The notes: generated from the letters alone by a model not told the origin. Numbered from the stretch's first letter, positions 29,122-54,093 are shown. The stretch is DNA of 64,000 bases from a virus (IMGVR_UViG_3300028805_000067:1-64000), one strand, 5' to 3'. A program made the numbers and translations.

Positions 29122-29746
29122 AATTGAATAATTTAACTATAATAACTTGTACTAGACCTTCGTCTTACCTCTATTACCTTTACAAATATTCGGTCAGTAG
29201 ATAGTTAAGTCTGAGCCTATAGTCCGTCGATTATAAACTTCTTAACTAGCGTTTCCGCCTCATGTCTACAAGGGATTGCTTACCCTTAACTTTCACCCAC
29301 CATTCAGAATGTTAAATATATTTCTAATTAAATACCATCTACCACGATAGTTTGCAGATTTGGGCTACTCGTACCAACAACACCTTTCTCTTATAGTGTA
29401 TTGCTACACATTCAACTGCAACTATTCCCTTAGTGTGCGTTTCTTAGGTTTGCGGAGGTTGCACAGCCGCCGCCTAACTAAGATTCTCTCTTGACTTTTG
29501 AATCAAGCCGTCTATTGCGGGAACGAGAAATGTTGTACCTTTTTATACGATAACTTTAGCACTAAAATCTGGGAAACCAACTAGTTTTTAATTGGCATTG
29601 TGCTTTTCTCACGAAAAGAAACTTTTATTATAACAAAAGTATCCTTATGTTATAACTTATTTCCGTTACCAGATTTTATCTCGGAACACATAGCATTGTG
29701 TCTTTACACCGAGTTAGTAAAATTATTATAATTAAATTATTCAATT
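29122..29746 (-). ncRNA. Large ornate ncRNA, ROOL-like (~625 nt)
   Basis: No ORF; ~27-bp terminal closing stem whose G.U wobbles work only on the minus strand; GNRA-capped hairpins (GTGTA-GCAA-TACAC, GCG-GAAA-CGC, CTTTTC-GTGA-GAAAAG); own promoter; tRNA-cluster context. Family assignment rests on size and context only. Confidence 0.65.
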
Positions 29747-30176: not shown

Positions 30177-30249
30177 TGGACCAGCAACGGTTATGCTCCG
30201 TTTACTCCTGCTTGCAGGGCAGGTGTTTTCCTGATTAAACTAGCAGCCC
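30177..30249 (-). tRNA. tRNA-Ala(TGC), atypical T-loop
   Basis: GGGCTGC..CCTGC-CCTGCAA-GCAGG..AACGG-AGCATAA-CCGTT; G3.U70. Confidence 0.8.
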
Positions 30250-31057: not shown

Positions 31058-31128
31058 TTTTCATCACCTCTTACTTTCTATAATTATTATATCAAAATTT
31101 TTTATAATTTTCAAATAGAAAATAAGTA

Positions 31129-31201
31129 AGCTCCCACTCGGGTATGATCCGAGATTACTGGGTTACAAATCCAGTGTTTTATCCGTTTAAACTAGAGGAG
31201 C
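31129..31201 (-). tRNA. tRNA-Thr(TGT), atypical T-loop
   Basis: GCTCCTC..CTGGA-TTTGTAA-CCCAG..CTCGG-ATCATAC-CCGAG-TGGGAGC-T. Confidence 0.8.
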
Positions 31202-31346
31202 GTAGGGTGTTTGCAACCACCCAAAGTTGTATCGTAACCACCGTTGTTCATTTTTATTTACCCGAACAATAGGCCGCGTGCTCACCAATGCCGCCGGAGG
31301 ATCCCAATGGGTGTAGAGGGGCTTGAACCCTCGACAACACGATTAA

Positions 31347-32122
31347 GGCAAGAAATGAGATTTGAACTCAAATTTTTTCCCATTCATTATCTGAATACTT
31401 TTGTATTTCAGTTTTCCTTCTAGGCAAATTCATAGAATCACACCATTTCCTAATGGAATTATCAGTAACTCCATACATAGCTGCAATTTTAGTAAAAGGC
31501 TGTTCTCTAATTAATTGTTTTAATTCTTCTCTTGAAGGTCTATCACACCTTTGTTGAGCTTTGTGTAAACATTCTAAACTACAATATGTCATACTAGATA
31601 AAATTGGTTTACCACAAATTAAACAAAAATTATTTGATTGTTGTATTTTTTTATTTAATTGATTTTTTGGTAAATCATCAATTAATTGTTGTGCTATTTC
31701 TTCATCATAATAATCTTTCCAATTATTTGGTATTTCATAATAACCACTATGAATACCTCTATGGCAATTTGCACAAACTAAAATACATTTTTTCATTTCA
31801 TTTAATTGTTTTTCAAGTGCTTTGGTAACGGCATTAGAATCACAAACACCAAATTCTTTTTCATCAGGGTTAACATGATGAAATTCTAATGCTTCTTGAA
31901 ATTTATCAAAACCACAAAGACAACATTTAGAATGAAACACTTTAATTAAATTACCTTTTCTTCGTTTAATAAATGAAGCTACATTTCTGCTATTATCATT
32001 TTTATACATTTGAATAATCTCCTTTAGATTAATATTTTTACATAATATATAAAAATGAATTCAGATAAAATATATTATTTTGCCCAGAGAAATAGAAAAA
32101 GTTTTACTTAAACTATTCTCAC
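31347..32122 (-). mobile_element. 776-nt tRNA-shaped intervening sequence carrying an HNH homing endonuclease gene
   Basis: Starts GTGAGAA-TA-GTTT-AAGTA-AAAC (acceptor strand + D-arm) and ends TGAG-TTCAAAT-CTCA-T-TTCTTGC-C (T-arm + acceptor strand + discriminator). Confidence 0.85.
31368..32009 (-). CDS. HNH homing endonuclease with Zn finger and C-terminal HTH
   Basis: CCLCG..LEFHHVNP...CILVCANCHRGIH; CLICGK..YCSLEC; FTKIAAMYGVTDNSIRKW; AAGGAG RBS. Confidence 0.9.
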   Translation of the reverse strand: MYKNDNSRNVASFIKRRKGNLIKVFHSKCCLCGFDKFQEALEFHHVNPDEKEFGVCDSNAVTKALEKQLNEMKKCILVCANCHRGIHSGYYEIPNNWKDYYDEEIAQQLIDDLPKNQLNKKIQQSNNFCLICGKPILSSMTYCSLECLHKAQQRCDRPSREELKQLIREQPFTKIAAMYGVTDNSIRKWCDSMNLPRRKTEIQKYSDNEWEKI

Positions 32123-32355
32123 AAGTCGTGTGCTCTACCTACTGAGCTATACACCCAGATAAAGAATGTACTCGGCGCGGGTTGTATGCAGATACCGCCA
32201 TACTGTAGAAAAAATCTTTATTTTTGCCTAAACGCACATTCTTTATTAGTTTTAACTTATAGTTATAATGATGAGCATTGGTATTATTCCTATAAGAACA
32301 CATTAAAAGGGCGTGTCAACCACTTAATTAAGACTAGCTTTATATGCTAGGCTGA

Positions 32356-32428
32356 TGGAAGTGGCAGGACTTGGACCCGCGGCATCTGCATCCCAAATGC
32401 AGCATTCTACCAACTGAATTACACTTCC
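32356..32428 (-). tRNA. tRNA-Pro(TGG)
   Basis: GGAAGTG..CTGCA-TTTGGGA-TGCAG..GCGGG-TCCAAGT-CCTGC-CACTTCC-A. Confidence 0.9.
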
Positions 32429-33180: not shown

Positions 33181-33251
33181 CAGCGGATGAGGGTTACGCT
33201 CCCCCGCCAAGAGCTTCAAAGGCTCCTGTACTACTATTATACGAATCCGCT
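33181..33251 (-). tRNA. tRNA-Gln(TTG), atypical D/T loops
   Basis: AGCGGAT..GGAGC-CTTTGAA-GCTCT..GGGGG-AGCGTAA-CCCTC-ATCCGCT-G. Confidence 0.82.
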
Positions 33252-34715: not shown

Positions 34716-35087
34716 TCAAAAATTTTTACTTTTTTCAATTAAGTGTTTTATGCCGCTGTTAATTTCAAAAAAATCAAACATCTGATAAGAATTATTACGG
34801 CTTAAAAAGTTCGCAAAGGCTTCATTATCTATAACGCCATCTTCTATTAACTTATAATAACCGTCATTAAAATTAACAGTTCTTAAATCATTAAGCTCTT
34901 CAGCAGCATCATACCCATAGCAATCGCCATATTTAGTAACAATACTGAAAATTTCATCACCACTTATAACATAAACAGTAAAATCTTCTATTAAATCCAA
35001 TGTTGGAATTTTAACTATTTCACTCTTGTCATCCCAATTGAGTATCTTAATTTCGTACATCTGCCCTTCAATATTAGCTTTATGCAT
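34716..35087 (-). CDS. Hypothetical protein
   Basis: Overlaps RNA ligase stop; likely start MHKANI. Confidence 0.55.
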   Translation of the reverse strand: MHKANIEGQMYEIKILNWDDKSEIVKIPTLDLIEDFTVYVISGDEIFSIVTKYGDCYGYDAAEELNDLRTVNFNDGYYKLIEDGVIDNEAFANFLSRNNSYQMFDFFEINSGIKHLIEKSKNF

Positions 35088-35997
35088 TGAGTACCACCTT
35101 TCTTGCAAGTTCCATTGTCTTGTTTGAACAAAATTTACCAAAATTATTACATAATTTAAGACCTTCTGCTACCGATTCAGGCTCTTCTTTATTAATATCT
35201 TCCCAAATTCTTTTAGGCAGATGCTTAGCAATAATACCCATCTGCTTTGCATCATAAGGTTCTGCGATAATGCCATCATCACGAAGATTGCAAAGCATCT
35301 TTTCAATTCGTCTTTCAGTTACAATACTATCTACAATAGCTTTTGCGAGAGCTTCATTAGGGTCTGCCGCTTTAGGTTCTTTGATTTTAACTTTCATTAC
35401 TTCACTAAAGCTATCACAAACAAGTTTCAGATAGTATTCATCTCTTGGTGCATTAAGTAGTGTCTGATTCTTAACTACAACACCTTCACCTTCAACAAGA
35501 GCAAGATTAGACTTACCCATAAACTGACGCATATTATCCCAATTCTTAAACTCACCTACATAAAGTGTGTTTACATAACCAAGATTAAGTATTTTAGCAA
35601 ACTCTTTTACTTCTTCCTGAACAAGATACTTTTCATTTGCTACATCATAAATATCATAAAAGTAAAAGTTATTGTAATATTCATCTTTGTACTGAACTTT
35701 ATTCTTAACACCCCATTCACCAAAGAAAACAAGATTAGCATGAGATTTTACAATATCTGCAAAGTTTTTGTCATTTGTTTCTTTAGTCTTTATCCAATTG
35801 TAGAAACCATTAAGAGTATTTGTAGGGGTTAATTCTTGGCGGCGGCTGAATGCCTTAATCTCACCGCTAGCCTCATCATACTGAAAGCTAGCATTACTAC
35901 CATCCATTTTTTCCTGAACTACTACAATATCATTCGGGAACCAGTTCTTATCATTGTATCCTTCTTTAAGTCGTTCAATATCCATATACTTCTTCAT
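35080..35997 (-). CDS. ATP-dependent RNA ligase, Rnl2-like family
   Basis: Nucleotidyltransferase motifs I EKMDGSN, Ia SRR, III FFGEW, IIIa FYFYDI, IV EGVVVK, V LK; helical C-domain. Confidence 0.85.
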   Translation of the reverse strand: MKKYMDIERLKEGYNDKNWFPNDIVVVQEKMDGSNASFQYDEASGEIKAFSRRQELTPTNTLNGFYNWIKTKETNDKNFADIVKSHANLVFFGEWGVKNKVQYKDEYYNNFYFYDIYDVANEKYLVQEEVKEFAKILNLGYVNTLYVGEFKNWDNMRQFMGKSNLALVEGEGVVVKNQTLLNAPRDEYYLKLVCDSFSEVMKVKIKEPKAADPNEALAKAIVDSIVTERRIEKMLCNLRDDGIIAEPYDAKQMGIIAKHLPKRIWEDINKEEPESVAEGLKLCNNFGKFCSNKTMELARKVVLNA

Positions 35998-52986: not shown

Positions 52987-54093
52987 TTAAATATGTGTTG
53001 GACGGGGCGGGATTTGCTCTAAAAGCCACTTCATAGGTTTTTTATAAAAGATTTCCTCTACTGTTGCGCCTTGAAATAAAACTGCAAAAGCAAAAGAGGC
53101 ATATGGCTCATCCTTTATCCTCAATGCTAATTCTTTTCTATTGTGGTCGCTCTCGCAATAGATGGCTTCCGCATAATTAACAAAGTTATTAATATCCTCA
53201 AGTAATTCCGCAATCTTATACTGATAATATAATATATCCACTTTAAACATCTTCTGCATTTCTTCAGAGATATTATTAGTAAATACTAATTCAAGCAACT
53301 CTTTATGAGGTGCGCCATTATTGCGTACATGATGTGCCATAAGATATTCTGGCGTTTTTACCTTAATTCTATGATACTGATCATCAACTACAACAAATCC
53401 TTCTTTTATACCTTCTGCGCTGCACAATTGATTAACAAGTTCTACACAATCATTTAAGTTATATTTAGTTAATTGATACTCTTTAGGATGCGGAATTCCT
53501 ATATTAATAGTGTATTCTTCACCTGTTATATTATTACGAGTACCAGTATGATATAATTTAGTCAATGGATAATCAATAACTATTTTATTATATGGTGAAA
53601 CCAATTCAAATATATAAGTATAATTACGATTAAGCAATTCAAAATCAATATCATTAAAATTAACAGCAGATTTAAACAATTCCGCATAAGTAACATTGTA
53701 ATTACTTACCAATGCTTGATTTGCATCAATACAACTATTAGTAGATATCATCCAACCAGTACCTGAAGTATACCACAATTTCATAATTGAACCATCTATC
53801 TTCTCTTGAATTTGTGCAGTAGACCAATCTATTTTATCCACATACCCTTCCCAATAATTGCCAAATTTGCGAAATGGTAAGCAGACAACAGGAAAATCAT
53901 TAGAAGATATATCTATAATTATACCTCTAGCCTCTTGTACATAGGGATCGTAGAAATCTGCACCTATATCATAGTTAAATATTAAAAGATCGCCATCCGA
54001 TTTAATGCGTATCTTTTTATCCGCACAAATAGAATATACTTCTGATAATGGGTAATTAAGTAATAATTCTCTTATTTTGGAATAATTATACAT
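52987..54093 (-). CDS. T4 RNA ligase 1 (Rnl1)-like RNA ligase
   Basis: EARGII, PFRKFGN, EKIDGS, FELVSP.NKIV, EGFVV, RIKVK..EY. Confidence 0.88.
   Translation of the reverse strand: MYNYSKIRELLLNYPLSEVYSICADKKIRIKSDGDLLIFNYDIGADFYDPYVQEARGIIIDISSNDFPVVCLPFRKFGNYWEGYVDKIDWSTAQIQEKIDGSIMKLWYTSGTGWMISTNSCIDANQALVSNYNVTYAELFKSAVNFNDIDFELLNRNYTYIFELVSPYNKIVIDYPLTKLYHTGTRNNITGEEYTINIGIPHPKEYQLTKYNLNDCVELVNQLCSAEGIKEGFVVVDDQYHRIKVKTPEYLMAHHVRNNGAPHKELLELVFTNNISEEMQKMFKVDILYYQYKIAELLEDINNFVNYAEAIYCESDHNRKELALRIKDEPYASFAFAVLFQGATVEEIFYKKPMKWLLEQIPPRPTHI

What the first reader, a model, noticed from the sequence alone, without database searches (positions are those of the whole stretch)
31308..32156. 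A tRNA inside a tRNA: candidate new intron class excised by tRNA-maturation nucleases and sealed by RNA ligase
Seen: tRNA-Lys is split after position 34 into a 34-nt and a 39-nt exon, both flawless, that join into a perfect 73-nt cloverleaf. The 776-nt insert (31347-32122) itself folds as a tRNA. It has a 7-bp acceptor stem GTGAGAA/TTCTTGC plus discriminator C, U8-A9, a D-arm GTTT-AAGTA-AAAC (the style used by this phage's Ala, Thr and Arg tRNAs), an anticodon-stem equivalent TTTTTC/GAAAAA and a T-arm TGAG-TTCAAAT-CTCA. Its 'anticodon loop' is ~700 nt holding a promoter and an HNH gene whose TGA stop lies in the T-stem. The inner tRNA's position 1 and discriminator fall exactly at the exon junctions. 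Established: RNase P cuts 5' of position 1 and leaves a 3'-OH on the upstream piece; RNase Z cuts 3' of the discriminator of CCA-less precursors and leaves a 5'-phosphate on the downstream piece. Inference: the two cuts would free exon halves held together by base pairing with 3'-OH/5'-P ends, the direct substrate of Rnl1/Rnl2 ligases (both encoded here), restoring loop CU-UUU-AA. This is not a group I, group II or BHB intron, and I know of no described intron that works this way.
Basis: partly seen in the sequence, partly recalled or inferred. Interest (0 to 1): 0.97.

Follow-up and report, generated by a model that had tools for sequence, protein, structure and literature searches.

The report
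tRNA-shaped mobile intron in phage tRNA-Lys
The only lysine tRNA gene of this 135-kb sheep-gut phage is split in its anticodon by a 776-base insert that folds like a tRNA, carries a homing-nuclease gene and ends where tRNA-trimming enzymes cut, which points to an untested, ribozyme-free way of splicing tRNAs in bacteria.

Summary
On the minus strand, exons 32156-32123 and 31346-31308 join into tRNA-Lys(UUU). The 776-nt insert has acceptor, D, anticodon-stem-like and T arms around a 213-aa HNH gene.

Comparison supports the structure. I found 17 distinct homologous inserts (15 in tRNA-Lys-UUU, 2 in tRNA-Asn-GUU). Each starts at position +1 of a 7-bp helix. Each ends 1-2 nt after that helix, or 4 nt after it (N-CCA or a near-copy). 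Removing each restores a 7-nt anticodon loop, although the split point varies (34/35, 35/36, 36/37). All inner stems covary.

The 3' tail follows how the phage's own tRNAs end: 4 nt where they encode CCA, 1-2 nt where they do not (one exception in 18). ORF-less inserts of 44-70 nt obey the same rule.

An insert-free allele exists in another sample. There is no match to group I or II introns, and no splicing endonuclease or RtcB in this phage. Rnl2- and Rnl1-family ligases are encoded.

The proposed route (RNase P, RNase Z, then ligase) fits but is unproven; no spliced RNA was seen. In print I found only two passing remarks on 'enigmatic' phage tRNA introns. This scan has flagged the class before on other DNA.

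The parts
32123..32156 (-). Exon 1 of tRNA-Lys(UUU): positions 1-34 (acceptor 5' strand, D arm, anticodon stem 5' strand, loop C-U-U)
   Evidence: ARAGORN calls tRNA-Lys(ttt) on the joined exons.
31347..32122 (-). 776-nt tRNA-shaped insert (candidate intron)
   Evidence: It is the unique solution of the junction finder. An insert-free allele occurs in DNA run X4.
32116..32122 (-). Inner acceptor stem, 5' strand (starts at the first insert base; preceded by U)
   Evidence: It forms 7 bp with 31348-31354. Six of its 7 pairs show compensatory change across 14 inserts.
32101..32115 (-). Inner U8-A9-like dinucleotide and D arm (4-bp stem, 5-nt loop with AAG)
   Evidence: A 4-bp D stem is present in 14 of 14 inserts, with swapped pairs.
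32093..32100 (-). 5' strand of the anticodon-stem equivalent
   Evidence: It forms a perfect 5-6-bp helix with the Trp-Glu codons in 12 of 14 inserts.
31368..32009 (-). HNH endonuclease gene (213 aa) plus zinc ribbon and C-terminal HTH-like region; it fills the inner 'anticodon loop'
   Evidence: Seven PHROG HNH families match (best E 2e-19). There are 866 relatives. The Cys/His/Asn motif residues are invariant.
31377..31382 (-). 3' strand of the anticodon-stem equivalent (Trp-Glu codons of the HNH C-terminus)
   Evidence: L109 changed both the codons and the partner strand.
31355..31371 (-). Inner T arm (5-bp stem, 7-nt loop T-T-C-A-A-A-T); the ORF stop codon TGA (31368-31370) lies in its 5' strand
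   Evidence: Across inserts, 69 of 70 cells are paired. TGA/TAA stop variants are compensated on the other strand.
31347..31354 (-). Inner acceptor stem 3' strand (31348-31354) and discriminator C (31347); no CCA
   Evidence: None of the 8 ordinary tRNAs of this phage encodes CCA either.
31308..31346 (-). Exon 2 of tRNA-Lys(UUU): positions 35-73 (loop U-U-A-A, anticodon stem 3' strand, variable loop, T arm, acceptor 3' strand, discriminator A)
35080..35997 (-). Rnl2-family RNA ligase, at the edge of the tRNA array
   Evidence: PF09414 at 90.8 bits; PHROG 548 at E 4e-53.
52987..54093 (-). Rnl1-family RNA ligase (T4 gp63-like)
   Evidence: PF09511 at 53.4 bits; PHROG 562 at E 9e-47.

Best explanation
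The insert is a mobile intron whose RNA is built as a tRNA look-alike, so that ordinary tRNA end-processing removes it.

Proposed steps:
1. The tRNA array is transcribed as a precursor.
2. The insert folds into an acceptor/T-arm stack (7 + 5 bp) with a D arm. The HNH mRNA sits where the anticodon loop would be.
3. Host RNase P cuts 5' of insert base 32122. This leaves a 3'-OH on exon 1.
4. Host RNase Z, which must serve this phage because none of its tRNAs encodes CCA, cuts after discriminator 31347. This leaves a 5'-phosphate on exon 2.
5. The two halves stay paired in the outer cloverleaf. A phage ATP-dependent RNA ligase (Rnl2-type at 35080-35997 or Rnl1-type at 52987-54093) seals them, restoring loop C-U-U-U-U-A-A.
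6. At the DNA level the HNH nuclease spreads the element into uninterrupted tRNA-Lys genes by homing.

Shown here: the structure, its conservation and covariation, the border rule, the presence/absence polymorphism, and the presence of the ligases.

Inferred: each cleavage, the ligation and the homing.
For: 1. Borders. In 17 distinct inserts the first base is +1 of a 7-bp terminal helix. The last base lies 1, 2 or 4 nt after that helix. Deleting exactly that stretch gives a 7-nt loop with U33 between a perfect 5-bp stem. The result is Lys(UUU) in 15 and Asn(GUU) in 2, although the split point differs.

2. Shape under selection.
- Acceptor: 95 of 98 cells paired, 6 of 7 pairs compensatory.
- T stem: 69 of 70 paired.
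- D stem: 4 bp in 14 of 14 inserts.
- Anticodon-like stem: perfect in 12 of 14, including a double change against the protein codons.
- None of 10,000 partner shuffles reaches the observed pairing.
- There is never a spacer between the acceptor and T stems, so the 12-bp stack that RNase P and RNase Z measure is kept.

3. The tail tracks the local tRNA 3'-end style. There are 13 four-nt tails in CCA-encoding outer tRNAs, 4 short tails in CCA-less ones, and 1 exception (Fisher p = 0.0016). Short tails arise at 3 or more separate places on the HNH tree.

4. The shell matters, not the ORF. ORF-less inserts of 44, 66 and 70 nt obey the same rule.

5. ARAGORN accepts 12 of 17 ORF-deleted inserts and none of 60 shuffled controls.

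6. Mobility. A DNA contig from another gut sample lacks the insert, and its 116-nt upstream flank is identical. Intact identical target cores occur in L237 and L238.

7. Other routes are not supported. No Rfam intron family matches at E up to 10. The genome has no EndA or RtcB.

8. Ligases are present here. They are also present in all three other insert-bearing records at least 47% complete, except G002.

9. Established chemistry (my knowledge): RNase P and RNase Z leave 3'-OH and 5'-phosphate ends, which Rnl ligases join directly. RNase Z that cuts after CCA is known in Thermotoga maritima (cited in PMC7479834).
Against: - No spliced RNA was observed. The one RNA library holding the locus gives only contigs. 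One of them spans the exon 1/insert junction unspliced, so it is either precursor or carried-over DNA.
- Ligases are just as frequent in sister phages without the insert, so co-occurrence is not specific.
- G002 (84% complete) shows no ligase.
- Most relatives need a precise cut after N-CCA. Many bacterial RNase Z enzymes avoid that position.
- Two inserts have degenerate 4-nt tails and one has a 2-nt tail (L088). L109 and the L022 mini-insert carry CCA although the outer tRNA (L109) or the neighbouring tRNAs (L022) lack it.
- Five of 17 ORF-deleted inserts are not accepted by ARAGORN. Position 55 of their T-loops varies.
- The acceptor pairing was partly selected for by my junction finder. 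The T, D and anticodon-like stems were not.
- Precise insertion alone would also conserve the 7-nt loop sum.
Confidence: 0.5

Rival explanations
1. The insert is a homing-nuclease cassette that has inactivated the tRNA-Lys gene. Its tRNA-like ends serve only to cut the HNH mRNA out of the tRNA-array transcript and stabilise it, as in tRNA punctuation. The exons are never rejoined.
For: The same HNH family often sits free-standing beside tRNA-Lys genes, and the two contexts interleave on the tree. No promoter was found in front of the ORF, so release from the array transcript would be useful. No spliced RNA was seen. Precise insertion by itself keeps the loop sum at 7.
Against: ORF-less inserts of 44-70 nt have the same shell and borders, and they have no mRNA to release. 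All 17 outer tRNAs keep perfect, mutually different anticodon stems, and ARAGORN of the 14 it was run on once spliced. This is the phage's only tRNA-Lys. The 3' tail tracks the CCA style so that the exon 2 end comes out exact, which mRNA release alone would not require.
Confidence: 0.2
2. It is a true intron, but it is removed by another route. Either an unidentified endonuclease leaves cyclic-phosphate and 5'-OH ends that a host RtcB-type ligase seals, or the RNA itself catalyses cleavage and ligation.
For: The 3' cut lies at variable distances (1, 2 or 4 nt) from the inner helix, and CCA is sometimes degenerate. G002 has no detectable ATP-dependent RNA ligase. Many genes of these phages have no known function.
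Against: This phage and G001-G005 have no RtcB, and this phage has no EndA. The minimal inserts are 44 nt, with nothing conserved besides the T-loop and helices. The acceptor sequence varies freely, which suits a shape-reading enzyme and not a catalytic core. No Rfam ribozyme or intron family matches. The tail/CCA link points to the tRNA 3'-end machinery.
Confidence: 0.15
3. It is a degenerate group I or group II intron with the HNH ORF in a peripheral loop.
For: Exon 1 ends in U. The insert begins G-U-G-A-G, which faintly recalls the group II 5' consensus. HNH ORFs are common in phage group I introns (my knowledge).
Against: There is no hit to RF00028, RF00029 or any intron family at E up to 10. 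The insert ends in C, not G. Only about 135 nt are non-coding. There is no reverse transcriptase. The 44-nt relatives cannot hold either core.
Confidence: 0.02

Closest known systems
'Enigmatic' tRNA introns of Lak megaphages (Devoto et al. 2019, PMC6784885); repeated for jumbo phages with alternative codes (PMC13037316, 2026)
   Same: They are inserts in the anticodon loops of phage tRNA genes. The intron 'itself may encode a tRNA'. Alleles with and without the intron exist.
   Different: Those reports are one-paragraph observations on short inserts. They give no border rule, covariation, CCA link, mechanism or nuclease gene. Here the shell carries a 213-aa HNH gene in its 'anticodon loop', and the phage is a 135-kb standard-code sheep-gut phage.
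Group I introns in bacterial, plastid and phage tRNA anticodon loops, some with homing endonucleases
   Same: They sit in the anticodon loop, follow a U, and can be mobile through an encoded endonuclease.
   Different: This insert has no group I core and no terminal G. Its minimal relatives are 44 nt. Excision would depend on proteins.
Archaeal and eukaryal tRNA introns (bulge-helix-bulge, EndA/TSEN plus RtcB or Trl1)
   Same: These are protein-dependent tRNA introns in or near the anticodon loop. The exons are held by the mature tRNA body and then ligated.
   Different: This phage has no EndA or RtcB. The splice sites flank a 7-bp acceptor-like helix, not a BHB. The expected ends are 3'-OH and 5'-phosphate, not cyclic phosphate and 5'-OH.
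tRNA punctuation, t-elements and mascRNA-type processing (tRNA-like structures that recruit RNase P and RNase Z to cut other RNAs)
   Same: A tRNA look-alike is used as a handle for RNase P and RNase Z.
   Different: In those systems the flanks are released and not rejoined. Here the flanks are two halves of a tRNA that would need ligation.
Phage T4 tRNA-Lys repair (PrrC cut; Pnkp plus Rnl1) and free-standing tRNA-cluster homing nucleases (T4 SegB, T5 HNH genes)
   Same: A phage Rnl ligase reseals a broken tRNA-Lys anticodon loop. Nuclease genes live in phage tRNA arrays.
   Different: Here the break would be programmed by the gene's own insert, with ends that need no healing. The nuclease sits inside the tRNA, not beside it.

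Membership tests
tRNA-shaped phage tRNA intron (Lak-type 'enigmatic' intron) | The insert lies in the anticodon loop of an otherwise intact tRNA gene | tested here: met
   The joined exons give tRNA-Lys(UUU).
tRNA-shaped phage tRNA intron (Lak-type 'enigmatic' intron) | The insert itself has tRNA architecture, with ends at +1 and the 3' end | tested here: met
   Of 156 ORF-deleted variants, 64 are called as tRNA; none of 60 shuffles is.
tRNA-shaped phage tRNA intron (Lak-type 'enigmatic' intron) | Removed from the RNA to give a working tRNA | tested here: inconclusive
   Only contigs were available and no spliced form was seen. This has not been shown for any member in print.
Group I intron | Conserved P3-P9 core (RF00028) and a terminal G | tested here: not met
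   One search finds no hit at E up to 10. The insert ends in C.
Group II intron | Domain V/VI core (RF00029), GUGYG...AY ends, usually an RT-maturase | tested here: not met
   One search finds no hit. The 3' end is C-C. The ORF is an HNH nuclease, not an RT.
BHB intron (EndA/TSEN-dependent) | A splicing endonuclease is available and a bulge-helix-bulge lies at the junctions | tested here: not met
   PF01974 is absent from the phage, while the controls ring in archaea. Both junctions abut one end of a 7-bp helix. The host genome is unknown.
Genuine decoding tRNA (inner element) | A 7-nt anticodon loop on a 5-bp stem | tested here: not met
   The 'loop' is about 700 nt and holds an ORF. The element is tRNA-like, not a tRNA.
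HNH homing endonuclease | HNH catalytic motif with zinc-binding Cys pairs | tested here: met
   PHROG HNH families match at E 2e-19. C, H and N residues are invariant in 27 relatives. Pfam PF01844 matches only in some relatives, not in this protein at E 0.1.
HNH homing endonuclease | Presence/absence polymorphism at a fixed target; cleavage of the empty site | tested here: inconclusive
   An insert-free allele and intact identical target cores exist. Cleavage cannot be tested here.
Bacterial RNase P / RNase Z substrate | A 12-bp acceptor plus T-stem stack, a T-loop, U at -1, and no CCA with U after the discriminator | tested here: met
   Searches show the sequence features. Actual cleavage cannot be tested with these tools.
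Rnl1 / Rnl2 RNA ligases | A match above the curated cut-off to PF09511 / PF09414 | tested here: met

The most novel reading that the evidence does not exclude
This is a third, ribozyme-free kind of tRNA intron, found in bacteriophages. A tRNA-mimicking RNA is excised by the cell's own RNase P and 3'-end endonuclease, and the exons are joined by an RNA ligase of the 'repair' type. Its 3' tail evolves to match the host's way of finishing tRNAs (N versus N-CCA). It moves as DNA through an HNH nuclease carried in its 'anticodon loop'. The ends are always the mature RNA ends while the split point wanders (34/35, 35/36, 36/37). New insertions may therefore even arise at the RNA level, by ligase-mediated insertion of the excised RNA into a nicked anticodon loop.
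Probability: 0.45. Interest if true: 0.92.

Novelty: new variant of a known kind. Interest (0 to 1): 0.85.

Why it matters
If the route is real, bacteria and their viruses have a protein-dependent tRNA splicing pathway. Such pathways are thought to be confined to archaea and eukaryotes. This one would be assembled from enzymes every cell already has, plus a ligase so far seen only as a repair enzyme.

That would have four consequences:
- It would give phage Rnl1/Rnl2 ligases a routine job.
- It would explain the 'enigmatic' introns reported in megaphages.
- It would show a new way for a selfish nuclease gene to live harmlessly inside an essential RNA.
- It would provide a simple, portable design for programmable RNA excision.

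For annotation, tRNA finders miss these genes or misname them. ARAGORN called this one 'tRNA-Stop' and called its relatives Met, Gln, Thr and Asn.

Tried and rejected
- **Group I/II or other known RNA family.** The Rfam scan of 31100-32400 at E up to 10 gave nothing relevant.
- **Splicing endonuclease and RtcB.** Both are absent from the phage.
- **Internal sigma-70 promoter.** None lies before the ORF.
- **Spliced RNA.** One RNA library (X3) holds the locus, but only as contigs. No joined form was seen. Gaps in its cover over exon 2 and the T arm prove nothing.
- **The look-up of encoding contigs.** I obtained context through the search for related loci instead.
- **'Ligase-less' relatives.** Pfam genome searches suggested that G001 and G002 lack RNA ligases. 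For G001 this was wrong: a 469-aa ORF matches PHROG 968 'RNA ligase' at E 6e-62. G002 remains without one.
- **Ligase as a marker of insert-bearing phages.** Rejected, because it is equally common in insert-free sisters.
- **Strict 'N or N-CCA' tail rule.** Too narrow. L088 (2 nt), L100 and L104 (degenerate 4 nt) were missed until the rule was relaxed. By eye, the L014 mini-insert also has a 2-nt tail.
- **ARAGORN's own intron calls.** Their borders were wrong by 1-3 nt, which gave false identities.
- **Solved structure of the HNH protein.** No hit by sequence.
- **Annotated phage collection.** It has no full-length close relative inside a tRNA. The best hit, Bacillus phage SDFMU_Pbc (38% identity), is free-standing near tRNA genes.
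- **Prokaryote genomes.** They hold only distant relatives; the best is a Clostridia MAG contig.

Full report
**What is in the window.** The window is the first 64 kb of a 135,255-bp viral record with 33% G+C. Runs holding it come from sheep gut. Coordinates 28.8-34.5 kb hold a minus-strand tRNA array (10 tRNAs by ARAGORN plus Rfam) and a ROOL RNA.

Read on the minus strand, 32156-32123 and 31346-31308 are the 34-nt and 39-nt halves of a tRNA. When joined, ARAGORN calls them tRNA-Lys(UUU). With its long-intron option ARAGORN finds this as the only interrupted tRNA of the genome. It misplaces the borders by two bases and so calls it 'tRNA-Stop'.

The 776-nt insert (32122-31347) holds a 213-aa ORF (32009-31368). 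PHROGs names it an HNH endonuclease. Pfam sees only weak zinc-ribbon and HTH matches.

- a 7-bp acceptor that starts at the first base;
- T-A, then a 4-bp D stem;
- a stem equivalent to the anticodon stem;
- a 5-bp T stem with the loop T-T-C-A-A-A-T, directly abutting the acceptor 3' strand;
- one discriminator base.

The TGA stop lies in the T stem.

**Is it more than chance?** With the ORF deleted, ARAGORN calls a tRNA ending exactly at +1 and the discriminator in 64 of 156 cut-point variants. It calls none of 60 versions in which the two ends were shuffled.

**Relatives.** I therefore used an alignment of 27 relatives to fetch loci from viral contigs, metagenomes and genomes. Nearly all full-length relatives lie in phage tRNA arrays.

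I ran an automated search for three features together:
- a 5-bp outer anticodon stem;
- a 7-nt loop with U33 after deletion;
- a 7-bp helix between the two insert ends.

It gave one tRNA-validated solution in each of 17 distinct inserts. ARAGORN then called the spliced outer gene Lys(UUU) or Asn(GUU) in 13 of the 14 it was run on. Fifteen inserts restore C-U-U-U-U-A-A and two restore C-U-G-U-U-A-A.

The split point differs between inserts (after position 34, 35 or 36). Even so, the insert always begins at +1 of the helix. It ends 1 nt (3 inserts), 2 nt (1 insert) or 4 nt after it. The 4-nt tails are N-CCA in 11 inserts and a degenerate form in 2.

ARAGORN's own intron calls had named these genes Met, Gln, Thr or Asn, because its borders were off.

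**Covariation.** Across 14 inserts:
- The acceptor is paired in 95 of 98 cells, with compensatory change at 6 of 7 pairs.
- The T stem is paired in 69 of 70 cells. This includes the switch between TGA and TAA stop codons, which is compensated on the other strand.
- The D stem is 4 bp in all 14, with at least five different pair sets.
- The anticodon-like stem is a perfect 5-6-bp helix in 12 of 14.

The 3' strand of that last stem is the Trp-Glu codons of the HNH C-terminus. Where the protein reads Trp-Leu (L109), the partner strand changed to match. No partner shuffle in 10,000 reached the observed pairing.

The acceptor pairing was partly imposed by my finder. The other three stems were not. 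The acceptor and T stems are never separated, so the 12-bp stack is kept. T54, C56, A57 and A58 of the T-loop are invariant, while position 55 varies.

**The tail follows the phage's tRNA style.** None of this phage's 8 ordinary tRNAs encodes CCA, and its insert has no CCA. The same holds for L019, L021 and L088. Inserts with 4-nt tails sit in outer tRNAs, and among neighbours, that encode CCA.

The table is 13:0 / 1:4 (Fisher p = 0.0016). Short tails occur at three or more separate places on the HNH tree, so this is not one inherited state. The exceptions are L109, and the L022 mini-insert by its neighbouring tRNAs.

**The shell is the constant part.** ORF-less inserts obey the same border rule:
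- 44 nt (acceptor plus T arm only) in tRNA-Lys of L004 and L005;
- 66 nt in tRNA-Ile-UAU of L109;
- 70 nt in L022.

Infernal scores their outer tRNAs above threshold, treating the insert as an insertion.

On the tree, nuclease genes inside tRNAs and free-standing ones beside tRNA-Lys genes are interleaved; starred branches force at least 6 switches. L094 (nuclease inside the shell) is sister to L004 (mini shell in tRNA-Lys, nuclease just downstream).

**Mobility.** A DNA contig from another gut sample (run X4) joins 31346 to 32129, with six replacement letters that change the anticodon stem. Its 116-nt upstream flank is identical. It is an insert-free tRNA-Lys in a close relative. Two unrelated viral contigs carry uninterrupted tRNA-Lys genes that share an identical 31-nt core around the insertion point.

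**Mechanism.** No Rfam intron or ribozyme family matches. The phage has no splicing endonuclease and no RtcB. It encodes an Rnl2-family ligase at the edge of the array and an Rnl1-family ligase.

RNase P and RNase Z read the acceptor/T-arm stack and leave 3'-OH and 5'-phosphate ends, which Rnl ligases join directly (established knowledge). RNase Z that cuts after CCA is documented for Thermotoga maritima (cited in PMC7479834). The model therefore fits this CCA-less insert very well.

It remains inference, for four reasons:
- The only RNA library with the locus is held as contigs. One contig spans the exon 1/insert junction unspliced, and no joined form appears.
- RNA ligases occur in insert-bearing G001, G003 and G004, but also in insert-free G007, G008, G010 and G012.
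- G002 has no detectable ligase.
- The Pfam-based 'absence' in G001 was a false negative, corrected with PHROG 968.

**Literature.** Devoto et al. 2019 report 'enigmatic' introns in Lak-phage tRNAs, one of which 'may encode a tRNA'. A 2026 jumbo-phage survey repeats the remark. Neither gives a mechanism, and neither describes a nuclease-bearing form. Six further searches found nothing that explains them.

Earlier notes of this scan describe the same class in many other phages, all with the mechanism untested.

**Verdict.** I class it as a new, nuclease-carrying variant of a barely described kind of phage tRNA intron. If its proposed splicing route is shown, it would be a new intron class.

Noticed in passing
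window 29134-29737 (-): A full-length ROOL RNA (RF03087, 284.7 bits) lies inside the tRNA array, between tRNA-Met and a tRNA seen only by Rfam.
   Followed up: no
window 30178-30249 (-) and 33181-33251 (-): Rfam finds two tRNAs (32 and 49 bits) that ARAGORN misses. Both have odd T-loops. They share the GTTT/GTAT-type D stem seen in the insert.
   Followed up: partly
window about 32078-32092 (-); same place in L003-L026: A conserved motif (roughly GAAC-N-GG-N-CAAA) lies in the 5' leader of the HNH gene. It occurs in copies inside tRNAs and in free-standing copies. It is not a sigma-70 promoter by the scan, and its role is unknown.
   Followed up: partly
L013 about 1380-2170; L099 about 1090-1880: A free-standing HNH gene is preceded by a 5' fragment of a tRNA and followed directly by an intact tRNA-Lys(UUU). 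This looks like a nuclease-plus-spare-tRNA cassette, not an intron.
   Followed up: partly
L004 482-525 and L005 1330-1373: A 44-nt acceptor-plus-T-arm minihelix ending in N-CCA splits tRNA-Lys(UUU). The related HNH gene lies about 125 nt downstream, outside the tRNA.
   Followed up: partly
L109 133-198 and 1131-1842: One 12.7-kb contig has two tRNA-shaped inserts. A 66-nt one lies in tRNA-Ile(UAU) and the HNH-bearing one in tRNA-Lys. Both end in N-CCA, although the outer tRNA-Lys lacks CCA.
   Followed up: partly
L022 1937-2006: A 70-nt complete cloverleaf ending in A-CCA is nested in a tRNA whose restored loop would read C-U-G-U-C-U-A (Asp anticodon with U37). The 8 neighbouring tRNAs lack CCA. 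The borders are uncertain.
   Followed up: partly
L234 18240-19649 (G001 118240-119649, -): This is a divergent RNA ligase (PHROG 968, E 6e-62; Pfam PF09414 only 18 bits). It lies next to a metallophosphoesterase and about 4 kb from the interrupted tRNA-Lys. Pfam-based genome searches miss it. A GIY-YIG nuclease gene sits in the same array.
   Followed up: yes
L003, L009-L012, L104 (TAG) and L023 (TGA): The HNH ORFs of several relatives contain in-frame TAG or TGA codons. Those phages therefore use recoded stops. The window's phage reads with the standard code.
   Followed up: partly
L087 about 700-740: This is a near relative of the window's insert, with the same acceptor 3' strand. The first exon 2 base is C instead of T, which would change the anticodon. 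The contig is cut upstream, so exon 1 is unknown.
   Followed up: no
window 31075-31114: A short stretch just downstream of tRNA-Thr attracts many partial contigs from all four runs (depth spike). It is a repeat or a widely shared element.
   Followed up: no
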